A stretch of 64,000 bases of DNA. It comes from a virus. Shown here piece by piece: positions 13,722-40,991 of this stretch. The translations under genes and the position numbers were made by a program. The notes under the pieces were generated by a model. That model worked only from the letters and a program-made list of their open reading frames with translations, did not search any database and had not been told where the DNA came from. Numbering within the stretch: the stretch's first letter is position 1; every line of letters begins with the position of its first letter. Location: positions 32,001 to 96,000 of the IMG/VR virus record IMGVR_UViG_3300032315_000774. One strand, given 5' to 3'.

Positions 13722-14717
13722 TCACTCTGCGTCGGTGCCCTCGACGATGTCGCGCCAGAGGCGCTTGGCCGACGGGTTCTTGATCTCCGTCCCGAGCGCC
13801 CAGCGCAGCACCTCGTTCATGCCACGCAGCATGGCCGCGTCCTCGCCCGAGTGATCGCGGATCGCCTGCTGGATGAGCGCCTGCACCTCCTCGATGCGCC
13901 GACGACCCGGGCGCTTGACCGGGACTTCGACCTCGTCGAGCCCCTTGCCGGTACGAGCCGCCTTGACGACGGCAGCGACCTCGTTCGTCGACGCCTTCGT
14001 CGGCGACATGCCCTTCGTCGGCTCGCGCACGGCGACGATCGCCGTGATGTCGCTGAGCGCCGACACTTGCTGCTCGCGGCTGAGCTTGGCGAGGTCGACA
14101 ATGCTGGTCGACGGAATCTTGCCCGTCTCGATCGCCTCCTGCAGAGCGGGCTCCAGGCTCATGAACAGCCACCACTTCTCACAGGTCATCCATGAGATCT
14201 TGGCCTCGCGCATGAGCGCGGCGCGCGCCGCCGCTTCATCGATGCCCTCGCGCTGCGCCTGGCGCACGTAGGACGCGTACTTGATCGCGGCCGAGCGGAA
14301 CGAGTCGTTGACTCGGTCCTCGTTCGCTACGATGGCGAGCCGCGTCAGGTCGAGCGTCGTGCCCTCGACCATCTTGTACTGGATCTTGAAGAGCCCTTCG
14401 GGCTTGGGCTCCTGACCCGGTCCCGGGACGTAGCCGGTGTTGATGAAGTTGATCGCCGCCCAGCGGTGGCGGCCGTTCACCACCAGCAGACGCGGAGCGC
14501 CATTCGGCAGCTCCCCGTCCTGGCAGACCTGGATCGGCGTCCGCTGACCCTCGCGCAGGAGCGACTGCACGAGGTCGCTGTCGACCTTCGTGTCGTCGTA
14601 GAGCGGGTGCCCCGGAGGGGGCAAGCTGATCGCGGCCGGGTCGATCGCGAGCAGGTCGCTGCGCGAGACCTCGAAGCCTGCCGCCTTGAGCTTGTTGATG
14701 TTCTTGGTGCCGCCCAT
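13722..14717 (-). CDS. ParB/Srx N-terminal domain protein
   Basis: LVQSLLREGQRTPIQV...LVVNGRHRWAA; helical C-terminus. Confidence 0.8.
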   Translation of the reverse strand: MGGTKNINKLKAAGFEVSRSDLLAIDPAAISLPPPGHPLYDDTKVDSDLVQSLLREGQRTPIQVCQDGELPNGAPRLLVVNGRHRWAAINFINTGYVPGPGQEPKPEGLFKIQYKMVEGTTLDLTRLAIVANEDRVNDSFRSAAIKYASYVRQAQREGIDEAAARAALMREAKISWMTCEKWWLFMSLEPALQEAIETGKIPSTSIVDLAKLSREQQVSALSDITAIVAVREPTKGMSPTKASTNEVAAVVKAARTGKGLDEVEVPVKRPGRRRIEEVQALIQQAIRDHSGEDAAMLRGMNEVLRWALGTEIKNPSAKRLWRDIVEGTDAE

Positions 14718-15850: not shown

Positions 15851-16273
15851 TCAGTCTTCGTCCTTGAGGAGGAAGTCGTTGTTGAGCACCTTGAACGACA
15901 GGCGCCCGCCCAGCGTCCGCGATACACGGTCCACCAGCGGTCGCACCACGATCCCTTCGCGGCGGTTCTTGGTTCCCGCGTAGACGCCGTTGGCCATCGC
16001 CAGGTAGCGCTCCAGCGTGTGCTCGAAGCTCCGCGCTTCGTCGCCCCGCACTTCTCGCTCGATTGGCACCGTGGAAAGGCCCAGCGACGCGACGAAGGCG
16101 CGCATCTCGTCGAGCGAGAGATACGCCCCGCGCCGCGTGTCGAACACGCTGAAGTGTCCCAGCTTGGGCTGGACCGTACCGAACATCGGGCGCGAGGCCG
16201 CCCACAGCTCGTAGCCCTGCTCGTGCAGGACACGAAGCGCGTCGGGGAGTGCGGTGTCGAGGACATCGATCAT
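15851..16273 (-). CDS. C-terminal half of an ATP-dependent RNA ligase (Rnl2/DRB0094-like), lacking motif I
   Basis: FSVFD, REGIVVRP (motif IV), SFKVLNNDFLLK (motif V); no KxDG. Confidence 0.65.
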   Translation of the reverse strand: MIDVLDTALPDALRVLHEQGYELWAASRPMFGTVQPKLGHFSVFDTRRGAYLSLDEMRAFVASLGLSTVPIEREVRGDEARSFEHTLERYLAMANGVYAGTKNRREGIVVRPLVDRVSRTLGGRLSFKVLNNDFLLKDED

Positions 16274-22467: not shown

Positions 22468-22586
22468 CGGGGTGTGATGGATTCGAACCATCTGGCTTGT
22501 ATGGCCATCGCAGAGCCCTTTGCAGGACGAGAGCGCGACCAGTTTGCAACTTTACATAGTTGGTGAGGCCCAGCCTCAAACACCCC
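22468..22586 (-). ncRNA. tRNA-like RNA 1 with giant variable-arm insert
   Basis: GGGGTGT/ACACCCC acceptor, GATGG-TTCGAAT-CCATC T arm, 51-nt insert shared with RNA 2. Confidence 0.75.
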
Positions 22587-22603
22587 TTATTGTCAAAGAA
22601 CCA

Positions 22604-22724
22604 TGGACCTGTGTGGATTCGAACCACTTGCTTGTATGGCCGTCGCGGAACTCTTTGCGGAGCGAGAGCGCGACCAGTTTTCTGATGCCCAGTATCAGTG
22701 GGTTGCCATTACCCGTTCAGGTCC
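22604..22724 (-). ncRNA. tRNA-like RNA 2 with giant variable-arm insert
   Basis: GGACCTG/CAGGTCC acceptor, GTGG-TTCGAAT-CCAC T arm, insert 44/51 identical to RNA 1. Confidence 0.75.
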
Positions 22725-27229: not shown

Positions 27230-27530
27230 GACAGCCTCGTACCACAGATGCCAGGCCGACTCGAACATCTGCATCGAGCGGGAGGAGGTGCGCCCAGAAG
27301 GCGTCGATGATGGCGTCATCTGTCTGTTCCGAGTGTGCTTGAACGAAAGCCTTGAGACGAGGCATCAGCTCGCGCAATCGCCTGTAGAAGCTCGCACGCG
27401 AGATGTCGAGACGTGTTGCTGCCAACGAACGCACGTTCCCTGCGAGGGCCAACTGGACAAAGAACAAGTCCTCGTCCAGCTGGCCCCGAGAAGCGCGTGC
27501 GACAGCTTGCAGCGCTTCACCGTACGTCAT
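27201..27530 (-). CDS. Fis-type HTH protein
   Basis: GNVRSLAATRLDISRASFYRRL matches the HTH_8 pattern. Confidence 0.65.
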   Translation of the reverse strand: MTYGEALQAVARASRGQLDEDLFFVQLALAGNVRSLAATRLDISRASFYRRLRELMPRLKAFVQAHSEQTDDAIIDAFWAHLLPLDADVRVGLASVVRGCRELARTTVD

Positions 27531-29311
27531 GCGCGTGCCCACACCGGCAGCGGGAGCAGCTTCGTCGCGGCGATCTGCTGCGCGAGGTCTGCACGCACCG
27601 TGGTCGTGGTCGACGACATCGGCGCCGACTCCATGAGGCGAGCCAGCGTGCGAGGCAGCGCGTACGCGTCCTCGATCGATGCCTGCGTCAGCTCGAAGTA
27701 CGGCACACCCGTGACCTGCGCCGCGCTTCGCCAGTAGCTCGGAACGCCCTTCACGCGGACCACTGGCATGCACACCACCGGCACGCCCCACCGCGCCATC
27801 GCGCGCTCCCACTGATCACGCGAGAAGCCCTCTTCCTCGTCGCCGATGAGCATCATGACGACGTCACCGCTCGGTCGCGGCACGCCACAGAGCGCCCCGA
27901 AGATCGATGCGTGCGTCGTCCCACCGCTCACCGACAGACCCCGGAACGACAGCTCGATCTCCGCTGCGGACGGCCCGCGCAGCTCCACGATCCGCGCGGT
28001 CGTGTTGAACGCCACGACCGTCACCTTGTCGAGAGGCAACGCCGTCAGGATGCGCCGAAGCGTTTGCTTCGCGACCTCGATGGCGTTCTGCATGCTCGGC
28101 GAGATGTCGAGCACCATCACCACGTGGAGGTCGTGCAGCGCCTTCTCCGTCACCGTTCGAGCTGCCGCCGACGCAGCGGCCTCCAGCTTCGCCTGGACGT
28201 CGCTCCGCGTGACCCGCGTGGCGATGTTCGCCGCCCGCATGTCCTCCGATGCCTTCAGCGCCGCCTCCCATGCCGTCTTCACGACGGGCACGTCGAGCAC
28301 GCCCAGCTCTTCGAGCGTCGGCGTCAGGATGACCAGCTCCTTCGGCGAGACCCCGCCCGCCTGGACCGCCGCGACCATCACGGCACGCGTCAGCTGCTCG
28401 CTCTTGAGCGCACCCGTGAGCTGCCGCCACGACGGCCGCTCCGTCTGGATGCGCTCGCACACCTGGCGCTCGGTCAGGTCGTGCCACGACGCCAGCTTGT
28501 CCCAGGCGACGCCCACGGCCACCGTGCGCATGCCGACTGCATCGGGCGACTGCTTCCAGCGCAGCGCCTTGTAGAACGCCTCAGAGCCCTTGTAGCGGCT
28601 CAGCGACGCCAACCGCATGATCGAGCGGCGGAAGCCCGCGCGCACGAGCCCGGCCAGCATGCGCGGGTTGTCCGTCCGGTAGTCGAGCCAGCGGTGGATC
28701 GCCGCGTCCCAGCGCCCCTTGGTGCTGAACCCGGCACGCCGGTTGATCTCGCGCACCTTCGGCGTCATCAACAGCGCGTGCACCTGGAGGAGCATGCGCG
28801 GGTTGAAGTCGCGGTCCTTCGCGAGCGTCAGGATCATCGCCTCACCGACCGCACGGAAGTCGTCGTCTCGAACCTTCTCCCCTGCCAGCTCGATCGTCTG
28901 ACCGCTGCGCTCCTGCACCAGCATGAACGCCGCGAGCGCGATCTTGAGGTCGCGGTGCTCCTGCGCGAACGCCCACGAAGCCCACTTCGCGGCGAACAGC
29001 TGGTCGAGCTTGTAGACCTCGTAGATCTGCGTGTACACACGCTCGGCCGTCGCCTCGTGCACGCCAGGCTCGACGATTGACGCGACGCGGCGTGCACCCT
29101 GCACGACGTGCTTGCCATCGTCAGAGAGCTTCCCGAGGCTCACGTGGCGCTTCTTCTGCGAGATGTCGAATACCTCGCCGTCGGACTTGATCTTGATGGG
29201 CTTCCAGACGCCGCCCACGTCGACGCCAGGGCGCCCGTGGTACGTGTGTTGGGTGTCGGCGATGAGCGAGCGGATGATGCGATCCGCTGCGCTGAGTGCT
29301 GCGTTCTCCAT
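27527..29311 (-). CDS. large helical + vWA domain protein (possibly Ro60/TROVE-like)
   Basis: MIDAS DISPS, VVAFN, GGTT, IGDEE at the C-terminus; long alpha-helical N-terminal region. Confidence 0.75.
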   Translation of the reverse strand: MENAALSAADRIIRSLIADTQHTYHGRPGVDVGGVWKPIKIKSDGEVFDISQKKRHVSLGKLSDDGKHVVQGARRVASIVEPGVHEATAERVYTQIYEVYKLDQLFAAKWASWAFAQEHRDLKIALAAFMLVQERSGQTIELAGEKVRDDDFRAVGEAMILTLAKDRDFNPRMLLQVHALLMTPKVREINRRAGFSTKGRWDAAIHRWLDYRTDNPRMLAGLVRAGFRRSIMRLASLSRYKGSEAFYKALRWKQSPDAVGMRTVAVGVAWDKLASWHDLTERQVCERIQTERPSWRQLTGALKSEQLTRAVMVAAVQAGGVSPKELVILTPTLEELGVLDVPVVKTAWEAALKASEDMRAANIATRVTRSDVQAKLEAAASAAARTVTEKALHDLHVVMVLDISPSMQNAIEVAKQTLRRILTALPLDKVTVVAFNTTARIVELRGPSAAEIELSFRGLSVSGGTTHASIFGALCGVPRPSGDVVMMLIGDEEEGFSRDQWERAMARWGVPVVCMPVVRVKGVPSYWRSAAQVTGVPYFELTQASIEDAYALPRTLARLMESAPMSSTTTTVRADLAQQIAATKLLPLPVWARA

Positions 29312-30019
29312 GCCGCAGTCTCTACGTGAGACGCTTGCTGCCGTCAACACTACCGATACAAGAACATCATGCTTGATGTATCGGAATCGCCACCTCGGAC
29401 TCCCGTGCAGCTTCGTCCGCCCATGCCTTCATCGCTTCAACCGTTCGCTTGTCGAGGCCAGGAAATCCAACCTCCAGAATGACGCACGCCATGCCGCAGA
29501 AGAACATGTACGCTTCGGTCATGTCTTGCGACGCCATCGGGTCTTTGGGAGTCGCCTGAAGAGCCAGCCGCGCTGCTAACACGCGCCCCGCTGTGGCGTA
29601 GAACTCTTGCTCGATGTCCGTCGCCATGTGCCCGAGCTTCTGTCGGAGCGCGTCTCGCTCTTGTCGGAGCTGTTCAAGTTCGGTCCGAAGTTCTTGCTCG
29701 GTCATGTGCTTCTACTAGCACAGCTCGACAGCCATCCGCACCAGCAGTCGCTTGTCGTCTGCACGCAAGAACAGCTGCGCTGCTTCCAGCGGCAAGTTGC
29801 AGGCGATACACCGCATCTGACCAGAAGCCGCATCGGGCTCGTACACATAGAACGTGTACATGTACTTCGGCTTTGCGACTGACGGCTCCGACAGCAGAGA
29901 GGGGGACTTCGGCGCTGGTTTGCAGGCTTCGTCGAGAAGCTGACGATGCTTCTTGATCGCGTCCAGTATGTTCGGGTCGTCGTAAGCGACTTGCGCCTTG
30001 AACGCCCACGCTGGCTTGC

Positions 30020-30968: not shown

Positions 30969-31042
30969 TGCCTAGGAGAGGATTCGAACCTCCACGTTAC
31001 AGACCCTCAGTCTGCTGCGTCTACCAGTTGCGCCACCTAGGC
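30969..31042 (-). tRNA. tRNA-Leu(GAG), short variable loop
   Basis: GCAGA-CTGAGGG-TCTGT. Confidence 0.9.
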
Positions 31043-31189
31043 AACCTCACAGCGAGCGCTCGCTGTGAGTGACCGTGTGTGCAGTGTGCACTGCTCAGCG
31101 GCCAGGCGGTCTCCCCTGGCCTTGATGACGCGTCTCGAAGTACAGAGCTGGCGGACTGGATACCGCTCGGGTGTACTTGATCAACGTCA

Positions 31190-31236
31190 TCGGTAGACAC
31201 GATGTGTTTCGGCCTTCTGGCCATCTTCAGTACCGA
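31190..31236 (-). ncRNA. type I hammerhead ribozyme
   Basis: TCGGTA-CTGAAGA-T-GGCC(AGAA)GGCC-GAA-ACAC(ATC)GTGT-C-TACCGA: complete core, three stems, GUC site. Confidence 0.85.
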
Positions 31237-31237
31237 G

Positions 31238-31310
31238 TGGAGGTGACAGGGATCGAACCTGCGACATTCGGCTTGCAAAGCCGACGCTCTCCCAGCTGAG
31301 CTACACCCCC
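31238..31310 (-). tRNA. tRNA-Ala(TGC)
   Basis: Cloverleaf with G3.U70. Confidence 0.95.
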
Positions 31311-32115: not shown

Positions 32116-32188
32116 AGCGTGTGGCGAGGTTCGAACTCGCGACCTACGACTTGGAAGGACGTCGCTCTGCCAACTGAGCTACACACGC
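32116..32188 (-). tRNA. tRNA-Gly(TCC)
   Basis: Loop CTTCCAA; one mismatch in the anticodon stem. Confidence 0.85.
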
Positions 32189-32192
32189 GAAG

Positions 32193-32395
32193 CGCCTCTG
32201 ACGGGACTTGAACCCGCAAACGACTAGATGAGAGCAACCGTGAAGCCTCTCTCTTCTCTGCACCGCCTTGGAGAATGGCCTTCCCTAAGCTGAGCATGGA
32301 GACCCAGTTCGGTGAGCAATCGCAACCGTAGGGCAGTGCAGTTATGTCTCCACCTTCCGTTTTAGGTGAGCCTGTTCCATTTCGGCTTCAGAGGC
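32193..32395 (-). ncRNA. tRNA scaffold (acceptor, D and T arms) carrying a ~130-nt structured insert
   Basis: GCCTCTG/CAGAGGC, GCC-GAAATGGAACA-GGC, GCGGG-TTCAAGT-CCCGT; 152 nt between the D and T arms. Confidence 0.75.
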
Positions 32396-32397
32396 GA

Positions 32398-32464
32398 AAG
32401 CAGAGGATGGAATCGAACCATCGAGCAACGGCTTATGAGGCCGCGCAGCACCTTGCGCTCTGCT
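32398..32464 (-). tRNA. tRNA-Met/Ile2(CAT) with truncated D arm
   Basis: GCGGC-CTCATAA-GCCGT; only 67 nt. Confidence 0.75.
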
Positions 32465-32867: not shown

Positions 32868-32870
32868 AGA

Positions 32871-33120
32871 GCCGGAAAACGCACCGAGGCGTGAGCAAAA
32901 CGCTTCGATGCGTTTTCCGGCAGACACGAGAATCCTGTGAACACAACAGAGCTTTCAGCTGTCCACAATGATCCTCATCAACCGCTTCATGAAACGCGAA
33001 GTCTCGCTGTCGCACCACAACAGCGCCCAAGACACCAGTGGTGTCTTCTTGCTCCGTGCAGGAGCATGCTCCTTTGGGAGAGGAGCACGTTCAGAACTAC
33101 AACTATCTCGTTGCAGCCGT
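32871..33120 (-). ncRNA. hairpin-rich putative ncRNA within the tRNA cluster
   Basis: At least five short consecutive hairpins plus a ~21-bp stem at 32871-32921; no credible ORF. Confidence 0.5.
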
Positions 33121-33130
33121 CAAGTTTGCA

Positions 33131-40356: not shown

Positions 40357-40991
40357 ACGTACACGATCTGTGCAGTCACGTACGCGAGCATGCGCCGCGC
40401 TTCACTGTCCGACGTCGCACCCCACGCACGGGCGAAGGCATCGAGCCCTGACTTCGAACGTGGCCCGAAGATGCCGTCGATCGCACCACCGTAGAAGCCG
40501 ACCTTCTGCAGCGCGATCTGCGTGTCCGTATCGTTCAGCTTCAGCTGGTCACCGTACAGACGTTGGATGACGTTCTCTGCAGAGCGCTGCCCGTGCTCGT
40601 TCGACCAGTTGAAGTGCCAGTCCTCGAACCCACGTGTCGCGCGGCTGCGAAAGCAGCTCCAACCGGCGTCTTTCAGACGCTGCCACAGCTGCTGATAGGT
40701 CCACTTGTGCCGCGCGAGCGTTGCGTCCACCGCAACGTCGACCGACACGCCGAAGTTGTGACCGCTGTAGCCCGGCTTCTGCACGCCTGTCTTCAGTCGA
40801 CGTGCTTCGCGCGACTGCTCTGCAGTCCGGTAGATGTCCGAGTACACGAGCGGCGTCGAGTCTTCGATGACCTTGAGCGCCGCCCATGCTTCGGGGTGCA
40901 TCCGCAGGAACGACTCCGGCAAGCTGTCACGAACTCCCTTGACGGTGTAGATGCCCGTGAGCGGTGGAATGTGAGTGAGCTTGAGGATCAT
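40353..40991 (-). CDS. endolysin: M15-family peptidase + peptidoglycan-binding domain
   Basis: YRT.EQ, PGYSGHNFGVSVDV, EDWHF; LQKVGFYGGAIDGIFGP. Confidence 0.9.
   Translation of the reverse strand: MILKLTHIPPLTGIYTVKGVRDSLPESFLRMHPEAWAALKVIEDSTPLVYSDIYRTAEQSREARRLKTGVQKPGYSGHNFGVSVDVAVDATLARHKWTYQQLWQRLKDAGWSCFRSRATRGFEDWHFNWSNEHGQRSAENVIQRLYGDQLKLNDTDTQIALQKVGFYGGAIDGIFGPRSKSGLDAFARAWGATSDSEARRMLAYVTAQIVYV

What the first reader, a model, noticed from the sequence alone, without database searches (positions are those of the whole stretch)
32193..32395. 203-nt tRNA scaffold with a ~130-nt potentially pseudoknotted insert
Seen: perfect acceptor, D and T arms, and an aberrant anticodon-like hairpin CACCT-AAAACGGA-AGGTG. 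Crossing or competing pairings follow: GGAGAC/GTCTCC, CTGCACTGCC/GGCGGTGCAG, CCCTA/TAGGG, plus GAGAG/CTCTC. It is too short for a standard group I intron and lacks tmRNA Ala identity. Inference: a third case in this phage of a tRNA used as a chassis for a functional RNA domain, possibly a ribozyme or a degenerate intron.
Basis: partly seen in the sequence, partly recalled or inferred. Interest (0 to 1): 0.72.

Follow-up and report, generated by a model that had tools for sequence, protein, structure and literature searches.

The report
Non-decoding tRNA-shaped phage RNA gene
This 203-base stretch is a real gene for an RNA with the outer shape of a tRNA that cannot read codons and carries a large folded extra arm; it is a divergent member of an uncatalogued phage RNA family that repeatedly sits next to genes for the RNA-surveillance protein Ro60.

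Summary
On the minus strand (32395 to 32193), inside a 25-gene tRNA array, lies an RNA with a perfect 7-bp acceptor stem, D arm and T arm. It also has a hairpin with an 8-nt loop (AAAACGGA) at the anticodon position and about 130 nt at the variable-arm position. ARAGORN and Rfam call nothing there.

It is not an intron, a known ribozyme, a tmRNA or an assembly chimera. I collected 33 further non-identical relatives (152-267 nt), nearly all from IMG/VR phage contigs, mostly inside tRNA arrays. They share the tRNA frame, the AAAACGGA-type loop on covarying stems, a covarying closing helix and three inner hairpins. A family profile built without the window's element hits it full-length (E = 1.2e-6).

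The window's copy keeps every helix but has changed the two most conserved hairpin loops. A strain about 97% identical lacks the gene exactly.

Ro60-type genes occur in 14 of 30 records found by RNA pattern alone, and directly downstream on the same strand in four. Here a Ro60-fold gene lies 2.8 kb downstream. The most likely role is a tRNA-framed, Y-RNA-like partner of Ro60; this is untested.

This scan has reported the same family before on other DNA.

The parts
32193..32395 (-). Whole tRNA-framed RNA gene, 203 nt including discriminator G73. No encoded CCA.
   Evidence: Sequence, MFE fold, full-length hit of the family profile at E = 1.2e-6.
32389..32395 (-). Acceptor stem 5' strand, GCCUCUG (RNA 1-7).
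   Evidence: Pairs perfectly with 32194-32200.
32370..32386 (-). D arm GCC-GAAAUGGAACA-GGC (RNA 10-26), with G18 G19.
   Evidence: Similar D arms occur in relatives.
32351..32368 (-). Hairpin at the anticodon position, CACCU-AAAACGGA-AGGUG (RNA 28-45). The 8-nt loop has no U33.
   Evidence: The loop is identical in 6 relatives. 33 of 34 family sequences, this element among them, have a stem around this A-rich loop, with many different stem sequences.
32332..32341 (-). Closing helix of the extra arm, 5' strand CUGCACUGCC (RNA 55-64).
   Evidence: Pairs with 32258-32267. The helix at this position covaries in relatives.
32310..32328 (-). Hairpin A, CGGU-U-GC-GAUU-GC-UC-ACCG (RNA 68-86). Family consensus is GGU-U-GC-GGAU-GC-ACC, followed by CGAA.
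   Evidence: Alignments and the covariance-model alignment.
32290..32307 (-). Hairpin M, CUGGGU-CUCCAU-GCUCAG (RNA 89-106).
   Evidence: MFE fold. A hairpin at the same place in minimal relatives is GGCUC...GGGUC.
32268..32287 (-). Motif B, UA-GGGAA-GGCCA-UUCUC-CAA (RNA 109-128). Family consensus is UA-GGGAA-GCGCG-UUUCC-AAG.
   Evidence: The stem is kept; the loop differs from the family.
32258..32267 (-). Closing helix 3' strand, GGCGGUGCAG (RNA 129-138).
32225..32257 (-). Accessory hairpin with GAGAG/CUCUC (RNA 139-171), between the closing helix and the T arm.
   Evidence: MFE fold. Some relatives (L262, L105, L119, L120, L128) also appear, by eye, to carry an extra hairpin at this place.
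32201..32217 (-). T arm GCGGG-UUCAAGU-CCCGU (RNA 179-195).
32193..32200 (-). Acceptor stem 3' strand CAGAGGC plus discriminator G.
27527..29350 (-). Gene for a 607-aa protein with a Ro60-like fold (helical N-terminal part plus vWA domain with a DxSxS site). It lies 2.8 kb downstream of the RNA on the same strand and is the candidate protein partner.
   Evidence: Pfam finds vWA only. The AlphaFold model has pLDDT 76. The top 8 PDB matches are Ro60/TROVE chains at E 1e-6 to 1e-5, but TM is only 0.28-0.43.

Best explanation
The stretch is a genuine gene for a non-decoding, tRNA-shaped RNA. It is a divergent member of an uncatalogued RNA family found almost entirely on phage contigs.

Likely biogenesis (inferred): it is transcribed with the surrounding tRNA array. 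Because its acceptor stem, D arm and T arm are intact, the tRNA-processing enzymes (RNase P, a 3' trimming enzyme, the CCA-adding enzyme) probably cut it out and finish it.

Why it cannot decode (inferred): the loop at the anticodon position is an 8-nt AAAACGGA without U33, and this loop is conserved as such across the family.

The functional part is the extra arm at the variable-arm position. It consists of a closing helix around hairpin A, a CGAA-containing joint, hairpin M and hairpin B.

Most likely role (inferred from gene neighbourhood only): a Y-RNA-like partner of a Ro60-type ring protein. The extra arm, and perhaps the A-rich loop, would dock the protein. The tRNA body would offer a handle to tRNA-binding machinery.

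The window's copy keeps all helices but has altered the loops of hairpins A and B.
For: Real, structured RNA:
- Perfect tRNA frame, and the MFE fold beats all 200 shuffles.
- The long-frame scanner gave 114 hits against 0 in shuffles.

Family membership:
- IMG/VR pattern scans gave 19 framed elements among 63 stretches and 16 of 16 new loci framed.
- After removing duplicates and one mis-framed row there are 34 distinct sequences of 152-267 nt: 30 from these two scans, plus L147, L037, L057 and the window's element.
- 33 of 34 have a stem around the AAAACGGA-type loop, with many different stem sequences.
- In the closing helix, 4 of 5 pairs change on both sides among 7 minimal forms, and 0 of 500 shuffles reach the covariation score. 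Different helix sequences at the same position occur in about 15 sequences, including the window's 10-bp helix.
- A full-length nhmmer profile built without the window's element hits it end to end at E = 1.2e-6 and 22.9 bits. The next hit is an ordinary T arm at 10.6 bits.
- A covariance model of the 69-nt extra-arm module, also built without it, ranks it 2nd in the window at 15.2 bits, E about 0.005.

Placement: 14 of 19 loci of the first set have tRNAs within 1.5 kb of the element.

Ro60 link:
- The window's 607-aa protein best matches Ro60 structures.
- In records found by RNA pattern alone, TROVE scores over its cut-off in 4 of 17 and 8 of 13.
- The divergent Ro60-like protein is strong in 1 of 16.
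- With the window's own record this makes 14 of 30, and 6 of 10 among records at least 90% complete.
- From the coordinates (arithmetic done by hand), the element lies directly upstream on the same strand as the Ro60 gene in 4 records (G017, G018, G027; G026 with a weak TROVE match). It lies within 3-5 kb in 3 more (G008, G012, G023) and 2.8 kb upstream here.
- This matches the known layout of Y RNA genes, within 4 kb of Ro60 and on the same strand (PMC4201824, passages read). In phage phiLo, Yrl1 and Yrl2 lie upstream of Ro60 (PMC12135203, passages read).
Against: - No expression or processing data. The only RNA run laid held a strain that lacks the gene.
- A profile of the core alone (hairpin A to motif B) does not find the window's element; the best hits, E 1.3-5, lie elsewhere.
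- The covariance-model E-value is rough, and the top hit (14460-14527, 18.6 bits) lies in a coding region. The module-only evidence is therefore marginal.
- The window's copy has changed the otherwise near-invariant loops: GGAU/AGAA/AGAG to GAUU, and GCGCG to GGCCA.
- A strain about 97% identical lacks the whole gene, so it may be dispensable or decaying.
- The Ro60 link is not universal. Three of 10 near-complete phage genomes with a family member show no Ro60-type gene and one shows only a weak match. Many records are fragments.
- Family invariance is partly forced, because my patterns required the motifs.
- Hairpins A, M and B never vary among the minimal forms, so they have no covariation support.
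- The Ro60-like fold match has low TM (0.28-0.43) and no TROVE sequence match.
Confidence: 0.55

Rival explanations
1. A decaying or dispensable copy. The element descends from the family but has lost its function in this phage, and is being lost from the population.
For: - The two most conserved hairpin loops are mutated. The CGUUU of motif B, which in relatives is complementary to the AAAACG loop, is gone.
- The core-only profile fails to recognise it.
- A strain about 97% identical has tRNA-Gly joined to tRNA-Met with one base between, so the gene is exactly absent.
Against: - Every helix of the family architecture is intact, including a perfect 7-bp acceptor and a 10-bp closing helix. The AAAACGGA loop is unchanged.
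- The same sequence is held in runs of several studies, with only one variant seen inside the element.
- Another divergent member, L057, exists and was found without motif patterns. My picture of invariance is therefore biased by the patterns used.
Confidence: 0.2
2. A tRNA decoy or competitor that works without Ro60. It would bind or block host tRNA-targeting defence nucleases, or other tRNA-handling proteins, through its tRNA body, with the locked non-anticodon loop making it uncleavable.
For: - The complete tRNA elbow and acceptor are kept while the anticodon loop is replaced.
- It sits inside tRNA arrays.
- Three near-complete genomes with a family member have no Ro60-type gene.
- That phage tRNAs can counter tRNA-cleaving defences is recalled background, not taken from any call.
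Against: It does not explain the large, conserved extra arm. It also does not explain the repeated placement directly upstream of Ro60 genes. There is no direct evidence.
Confidence: 0.15
3. An interrupted tRNA gene. The roughly 130-nt insert would be an intron or self-cleaving ribozyme that is removed to give a working tRNA.
For: - There is a tRNA frame around a structured insert.
- In the RNA run a contig skips 32189-32396.
Against: - No Rfam intron or ribozyme match, even at E up to 10.
- The insert is in the variable region.
- The remaining loop is 8 nt without U33, and this loop is conserved in the family.
- The skip removes the whole gene including both acceptor strands, in a contig with 13 other differences. 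It is strain variation, not splicing.
- All 20 amino acids are already served by the array.
Confidence: 0.03
4. A tmRNA-like molecule or an assembly chimera of two tRNAs.
For: - The T arm and the start of the acceptor 3' strand (GCGGGUUCAAGUCCCGUCAG...) resemble those of tmRNA. That comparison is recalled, not tested.
- Two relatives (L068, L069) have a G3:U70 pair.
Against: - ARAGORN calls no tmRNA here but does call tmRNAs elsewhere in related loci that also carry a family member.
- The element has C3-G70, a full D stem and no tag reading frame.
- Independent contigs from other studies carry the same sequence.
Confidence: 0.02

Closest known systems
YrlA-type bacterial and phage Y RNAs, partners of Ro60/Rsr (Rfam RF02553; Chen et al. 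2014, PMC4201824; phage phiLo Yrl1/Yrl2, PMC12135203)
   Same: - A tRNA-like D arm, T arm and acceptor in a non-decoding RNA.
- Genes lie within a few kb of a Ro60-type gene on the same strand, often directly upstream.
- A CGAA-containing single-stranded joint next to a helix.
- M. smegmatis YrlA is cut by RNase P and receives CCA (PMC4201824, passage read), which is what I infer for this RNA.
   Different: - The topology differs. In YrlA the RNA ends form the long Ro60-binding stem and the acceptor-like stem is closed by a loop. Here the ends form a normal open acceptor stem and the conserved module is grafted at the variable-arm position.
- The GNCGAAN0-1G motif is not met exactly (ACCGAACUG).
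- RF02553 does not match the element itself. The 27.9-bit sub-threshold hit straddles its T arm and the neighbouring tRNA-Gly.
- Binding to Ro60 is untested.
Class II tRNAs with long variable arms (Ser, Leu, Tyr, Sec)
   Same: 7/5 acceptor/T geometry, a 3-bp D stem with a large D loop, G73, and an arm emerging at the variable position.
   Different: - The arm is about 130 nt rather than 13-21 nt.
- The anticodon loop is 8 nt without U33.
- It is not called by ARAGORN or the Rfam tRNA model.
- Acceptor stems and discriminators vary freely across the family, so there is no shared charging identity.
tmRNA (Rfam RF00023)
   Same: A tRNA-like acceptor and T arm enclosing a large structured insert, encoded in phage tRNA regions.
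   Different: It has a full D stem and an anticodon-position hairpin, no G3:U70 here, and no tag reading frame. Canonical tmRNAs coexist with family members in L037 and L057.
Other tRNA-framed RNAs of about 125-145 nt in the same phages, with a 55-65-nt variable arm ending ...CAUACAAGC (this window 22468-22724; many loci)
   Same: The same design principle (tRNA frame plus a structured variable arm), the same genomic setting beside Ro60-like genes, and absence from Rfam.
   Different: A different arm sequence and fold, mostly 7-nt anticodon-like loops, and much higher frequency in the 60 Ro60-like loci.

Membership tests
Uncatalogued family of tRNA-framed RNAs with an AAAACGGA-type loop (defined here from 33 relatives) | Open 7-bp acceptor stem, D arm and T arm enclosing the whole RNA. 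| tested here: met
Uncatalogued family of tRNA-framed RNAs with an AAAACGGA-type loop (defined here from 33 relatives) | Hairpin at the anticodon position with an A-rich 8-10-nt loop, consensus AAAACGGA. | tested here: met
   The loop is identical to that of L251, L252, L261, L119, L088 and L128.
Uncatalogued family of tRNA-framed RNAs with an AAAACGGA-type loop (defined here from 33 relatives) | Closing helix directly flanking hairpin A ... motif B-CCAAG. | tested here: met
   A 10-bp helix; its 5' strand ends 4 nt before the hairpin-A motif as matched (3 nt, CUA, before the full hairpin) and its 3' strand overlaps the G of CCAAG (CCAA-GGCGGUGCAG). The helix covaries in relatives.
Uncatalogued family of tRNA-framed RNAs with an AAAACGGA-type loop (defined here from 33 relatives) | Hairpin A, GGU-U-GC-[4 nt]-GC-ACC, followed by CGAA. 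| tested here: met
   The stem and CGAA are present. The loop is GAUU rather than GGAU/AGAA/AGAG, and there are 2 extra bases on the 3' side.
Uncatalogued family of tRNA-framed RNAs with an AAAACGGA-type loop (defined here from 33 relatives) | Motif B, UAGGGAAG-CGCG-UUUCC. | tested here: inconclusive
   UAGGGAAG and the stem GGGAA/UUCUC are present (L260 has the same UUCUC). The loop is GGCCA instead of GCGCG, and the CGUUU is lost.
Uncatalogued family of tRNA-framed RNAs with an AAAACGGA-type loop (defined here from 33 relatives) | Significant match to a family profile built without the element. | tested here: met
   - Full-length nhmmer profile: E = 1.2e-6, met.
- Covariance model of the module: rank 2, E about 0.005, borderline.
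- Core-only nhmmer profile: no hit, not met.
YrlA / Y RNA (RF02553) | Match to the Rfam model at its gathering score. | tested here: not met
   Only a 27.9-bit hit against a gathering score of 69, and it spans the T arm plus the neighbouring tRNA-Gly.
YrlA / Y RNA (RF02553) | RNA ends form the Ro60-binding stem, with the tRNA-like domain circularly permuted. | tested here: not met
   The ends form an ordinary acceptor stem.
YrlA / Y RNA (RF02553) | GNCGAAN0-1G motif (PMC4201824). | tested here: not met
   The closest strings, read from the sequence, are ACCGAACUG and GCCGAAAUG. Neither fits exactly.
YrlA / Y RNA (RF02553) | Encoded within about 4 kb of a Ro60 gene on the same strand. | tested here: met
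   2.8 kb upstream of the Ro60-fold gene at 27527-29350, on the same strand.
YrlA / Y RNA (RF02553) | Bound by Ro60. | not testable with these tools
   Needs pull-down or gel shift.
tRNA (RF00005) | 7-nt anticodon loop with U33, and detection by tRNA finders. | tested here: not met
   The loop is 8 nt, AAAACGGA. There is no ARAGORN call and no RF00005 hit, even at E up to 10.
tmRNA (RF00023) | G3:U70, no D stem, a tag reading frame, and detection by ARAGORN or Rfam. | tested here: not met
   C3-G70, a D stem is present, and nothing is called.
Group I/II introns and small self-cleaving ribozymes (Rfam) | Match to any intron or ribozyme model. | tested here: not met
   Nothing for the insert at E up to 10. 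One 12.3-bit group II D1-D4 hit (E 1.9) lies mostly over tRNA-Gly. Nothing was found in relative L038 either.

The most novel reading that the evidence does not exclude
The family is a new architectural class of Y RNA. [quoted passage not shown] Phage Ro60 particles could then plug directly into tRNA-handling machinery, for example surveillance or repair of tRNAs cut by host defences; this phage also encodes two RNA-ligase-domain proteins. On this reading the window's copy, with its changed hairpin loops, is a specificity variant matched to the very divergent Ro60-like protein of this phage, not a decaying gene.
Probability: 0.3. Interest if true: 0.8.

Novelty: new variant of a known kind. 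Interest (0 to 1): 0.6.

Why it matters
Phage tRNA arrays are usually read as codon-supply devices. Here they also carry conserved RNAs that look like tRNAs to the processing machinery but cannot decode, and that travel with Ro60, a protein of RNA quality control whose bacterial and phage roles are still poorly understood.

If the RNA is a Ro60 partner, it widens the definition of Y RNAs. It would also give a direct, testable handle on what phage Ro60 particles do during infection, for example tRNA surveillance, repair, or evasion of tRNA-cleaving defences.

The family is absent from Rfam, and tRNA finders do not call the window's element, so it goes unannotated in phage genomes.

Tried and rejected
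Database searches with no result:
- Rfam at gathering threshold, and at E up to 10, on the element, on relative L038 and on 31030-31245: no family explains the insert.
- INPHARED phage searches found only tRNA-sized matches.

Pattern scans that failed:
- The first scan, on the 10-bp helix, gave 4 chance matches.
- A pattern of D arm plus loop gave 0.
- A pattern on a conserved hairpin gave only 4 stretches, 2 of them new.
- My single metagenome scan, with a pattern specific to the window's element, returned one AT-rich chance match (L070).
Only one, L147 on a 2.5-kb Microcoleus MAG contig, has the tRNA frame. By my estimate most of the rest are chance matches. I therefore could not test earlier notes that the family occurs in several bacterial phyla.

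Protein route: the neighbouring 320-aa protein has no relatives in IMG/VR. PHROGs named only a baseplate protein.

Homology tests that failed or were weak:
- The core-only nhmmer profile did not find the element.
- MAFFT misaligned the window's closing helix. I therefore counted that helix by anchors in a script and ran the formal pair count on 7 minimal forms only. L254 was left out because of its misaligned start, and the window's element was left out to keep the model independent.

'Anticodon lock' (AAAACG loop pairing with the CGUUUU of motif B):
- Both sides are conserved and complementary in most relatives, but I found no change on both sides that would prove the pairing.
- The window's copy lacks the motif-B partner.
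- A 6-bp match to UCGUUU just before the T arm is about as likely as not by chance, by my own estimate.

Other points:
- RtcB is not found in the 61%-complete record.
- The RNA run X19 gave no depth over the element because its strain lacks the element. This says nothing about expression.
- Literature searches listed no paper describing this family. The supplementary tables of PMC4201824, which list phage YrlA candidates, could bear on whether members were seen before.
- Rows dropped: L250 (wrong frame start) and the duplicates L081 = L071, L111 = L109, L264 = L259, L265 = L254. L066 and L067 were kept as the copies of the L043 and L038 elements.
Full report
**What is there**

The finding lies on the minus strand, between tRNA-Met (32398-32464) and tRNA-Gly (32116-32188). 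It sits in a run of 25 same-strand tRNA genes covering all 20 amino acids.

Read 5' to 3' the RNA has these parts:
- Acceptor GCCUCUG.
- A D arm, GCC-GAAAUGGAACA-GGC.
- A hairpin, CACCU-AAAACGGA-AGGUG.
- About 130 nt of further sequence.
- A T arm, GCGGG-UUCAAGU-CCCGU.
- Acceptor 3' strand CAGAGGC and discriminator G. No CCA is encoded, as for the neighbouring tRNAs.

The minimum-energy fold reproduces this frame. It folds the insert into a 10-bp helix closing a three-way junction, plus one further hairpin (-78.2 kcal/mol, z = -2.52, 0 of 200 shuffles as good).

ARAGORN calls neither a tRNA nor a tmRNA here. Rfam has no match for the insert even at E up to 10. A sub-threshold YrlA hit merely bridges the element's T arm and the D arm of the next tRNA.

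The record is a 137-kb IMG/VR phage contig, estimated 61% complete, with no close relative among deposited phages.

**It is not an artefact**

Public runs from several freshwater studies hold the stretch. A contig of 1837 nt from another study spans all of it with 5 differences.

The same call showed a 574-nt contig about 97% identical (13 differences) in which tRNA-Gly is joined to tRNA-Met with one base between. In that strain the whole gene with its spacers (32189-32396) is absent. This is presence/absence variation between strains. It is not splicing, because both acceptor strands go with it.

**Relatives**

I aligned the neighbouring 607-aa vWA protein with its homologues and fetched 60 IMG/VR loci that encode it. 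Most of these come from phage contigs of 200-600 kb and carry tRNA arrays upstream of the gene.

A scanner for tRNA frames longer than 100 nt gave 114 hits in these loci plus the window, against 0 in shuffles. Four hits (L037, L038, L043, L057) share with the window's element the A-rich loop and the T stem GCGGG/CCCGU.

Conserved motifs from these then served as patterns:
- One IMG/VR scan gave 63 stretches, 19 of them inside a tRNA frame.
- A second scan, which did not fix the 3' half of motif B, gave 16 new loci, all framed.

After removing duplicates and one mis-framed row I had 34 distinct sequences of 152-267 nt, the window's element included. In the first set, 14 of 19 loci have tRNAs within 1.5 kb of the element.

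Only one is framed, on a 2.5-kb MAG contig.

**Family architecture**

The minimal forms (152-155 nt) show the design clearly:
- A tRNA frame.
- A hairpin at the anticodon position with the loop AAAACGGA.
- A short linker, GNCRUR.
- A 5-6-bp closing helix.
- Hairpin A, GGU-U-GC-GGAU-GC-ACC.
- The joint GAAU, which with the last C of hairpin A reads CGAA.
- Hairpin M, GGCUC...GGGUC.
- Hairpin B, UA-GGGAA-GCGCG-UUUCC-AAG.
- The closing helix 3' strand, a linker and the T arm.

Longer forms add hairpins before hairpin A, between A and B, or after the closing helix.

Evidence for each structural element:
- Anticodon-position stem: present in 33 of 34 sequences, with many different sequences.
- Closing helix: 4 of 5 pairs change on both sides among 7 minimal forms; 97.9% of cells are paired against 22.7-54.1% when the partners are slid; 0 of 500 shuffles reach the covariation score. 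About 15 sequences have a differently spelled helix at exactly this position.
- Acceptor and outer helices of the long forms also covary.
- Hairpins A, M and B never vary in the minimal set. They are supported by conservation only.

**Does the window's element belong?**

Its parts map one to one onto this plan:
- Loop AAAACGGA, identical to six relatives.
- Linker GACAUA.
- Closing helix CUGCACUGCC/GGCGGUGCAG.
- Hairpin A, CGGU-U-GC-GAUU-GC-UC-ACCG, followed by AA, so that its last two bases plus AA read CGAA.
- A hairpin at the place of M.
- UA-GGGAA-GGCCA-UUCUC-CAA, with the 3' strand of the closing helix (GGCGGUGCAG) starting directly after it.
- An accessory hairpin where, by eye, L262, L105, L119, L120 and L128 also have one.

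Profile tests, all built without the element:
- A full-length nhmmer profile hits it from position 3 to 213 at E = 1.2e-6 (22.9 bits). The next best hit in the 137-kb genome is a plain T arm at 10.6 bits.
- A covariance model of the 69-nt module ranks it second in the window (15.2 bits, E about 0.005 with rough calibration). The top hit lies in a coding region and is probably chance.
- A profile of the core alone does not find it.

L057, the other member found without motif patterns, scores similarly low (17.5 bits).

I conclude that the element is a divergent but genuine member. Its differences are concentrated in the loops of hairpins A and B, which are the most conserved parts elsewhere. 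That invariance is partly imposed by my search patterns.

- The 10-bp helix is the family's closing helix.
- GAGAG/CUCUC is the accessory hairpin.
- GGAGAC/GUCUCC would compete with hairpin M, and CCCUA/UAGGG would use the invariant start of motif B. Neither has a counterpart in any relative.
- The single natural variant, U66C in a low-depth contig, would break the second of these.
- A pseudoknot is therefore not supported.
- Earlier notes of this scan propose that the A-rich loop pairs with the CGUUUU of motif B. In most relatives the two are complementary, but I found no compensatory change. The window's copy has lost that partner.

**Link to Ro60**

The window's 607-aa protein (27527-29350, same strand, 2.8 kb downstream) matches Pfam only in its vWA part. 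Its AlphaFold model (pLDDT 76) finds Ro60/TROVE structures as the eight best PDB matches over about 550 columns. These include phage phiLo Ro60 and Deinococcus Rsr further down the list. TM is low, at 0.28-0.43 for those eight.

In records found through the RNA alone:
- TROVE scores over its cut-off in 4 of 17 and 8 of 13.
- The divergent Ro60-like protein is strong in 1 of 16 and 0 of 13.
- With the window's own record this gives 14 of 30.
- Among records at least 90% complete it gives 6 of 10, with one more weak match and three with none.

From the record coordinates (arithmetic by hand):
- The RNA gene lies directly upstream of the Ro60 gene on the same strand in G017, G018 and G027, and in G026 where the TROVE match is weak.
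- It lies within 3-5 kb on the same strand in G008, G012 and G023.

This is the known arrangement of Y RNA genes (PMC4201824 and PMC12135203, passages read). Iyer et al. note that only a small subset of jumbo phages have a TROVE protein (PMC7824862, passage read). I had no matched control set, so enrichment is not formally tested.

**How it most likely works**

Shown:
- A conserved tRNA-framed fold with a non-anticodon loop and a conserved extra arm.
- Placement in tRNA arrays.
- Frequent linkage to Ro60-type genes.

Inferred:
- Co-transcription with the array.
- Release by RNase P and 3' trimming, followed by CCA addition.
- No decoding.
- Docking of a Ro60-type protein on the extra arm, which offers a helix next to a CGAA joint as in Y RNAs.
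- The tRNA body serving as a handle for tRNA-binding factors.

The phage also encodes two RNA-ligase-domain proteins but no RtcB in the part assembled. This fits, but does not show, a role around tRNA damage.

The main rivals are a decaying copy and a Ro60-independent tRNA decoy.

**Novelty**

I found no description in Rfam 15 or in four full-text searches. Supplements were closed and subscription journals are not covered.

Earlier follow-ups of this scan reached similar readings on other genomes. This is therefore a further, divergent member, not a first sighting.

Relative to public knowledge it is a new variant of the tRNA-mimicking Y-RNA theme, with a different topology.

Noticed in passing
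window 22468-22724 (-), and loci such as L016 8569-8698, L027 8271-8403, L044 9014-9150, L062 9154-9623: A second, much commoner family of tRNA-framed RNAs of about 125-145 nt. Its 55-65-nt variable arm contains ...CUCG-hairpin... and ends in CAUACAAGC / CCUACAAG just before the T arm. It occurs in many of the 60 Ro60-like loci, and twice in this window.
   Followed up: partly
window 27527-29350 (-): The 607-aa 'vWA' protein has a predicted Ro60-like fold with no TROVE sequence match. Relatives at about 40% identity are numerous in metagenomes and MAGs (681 proteins at E <= 0.001 among the 8000 candidates scored). They include 60 IMG/VR loci, mostly next to tRNA arrays.
   Followed up: partly
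window 32189-32396: A 574-nt contig in a metatranscriptome run, about 97% identical, joins tRNA-Gly to tRNA-Met with a single A between them. The whole RNA gene is therefore a presence/absence polymorphism between strains.
   Followed up: partly
window 31030-31245: Another first-stage note proposed a hammerhead ribozyme just after tRNA-Ala (31190-31236). Rfam shows no hammerhead match on either strand at E up to 10. The 193-nt gap in the array stays unexplained.
   Followed up: partly
window 32869-33130 (-): Another gap of about 260 nt in the tRNA array, between tRNA-Lys(ttt) and tRNA-Ser(tga). Its minus-strand sequence has several hairpins. It was not analysed.
   Followed up: no
window 14460-14527 (-): This is the best hit of the extra-arm covariance model (18.6 bits). 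It contains CCGAAUGGCGCU..GCGUCUG but lies inside a 331-aa open reading frame (13722-14717). It is probably chance, and it shows that the model's E-values are optimistic.
   Followed up: no
window 40895-40906 (-): An exact 12-mer, UGCGGAUGCACC, equal to the family's hairpin A core, lies inside an open reading frame. No motif B was seen nearby, so it is probably chance.
   Followed up: no
genome C1:22060-22551 (-) and window 15887-16156 (-): Two proteins with an RNA_ligase (PF09414) domain are encoded by the phage. No RtcB was found in the assembled 61%.
   Followed up: no
L068 2051-2317 (-), L069 6285-6548 (-): Two long family members have the acceptor GGGGCUG/CAGCUCC with a G3:U70 pair (alanine-type identity) and a tmRNA-like T arm. 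Acceptor stems in the rest of the family vary freely.
   Followed up: no
L016, L037, L039, L045, L048, L057: ARAGORN calls canonical tmRNA genes in six of the Ro60-like phage loci.
   Followed up: no
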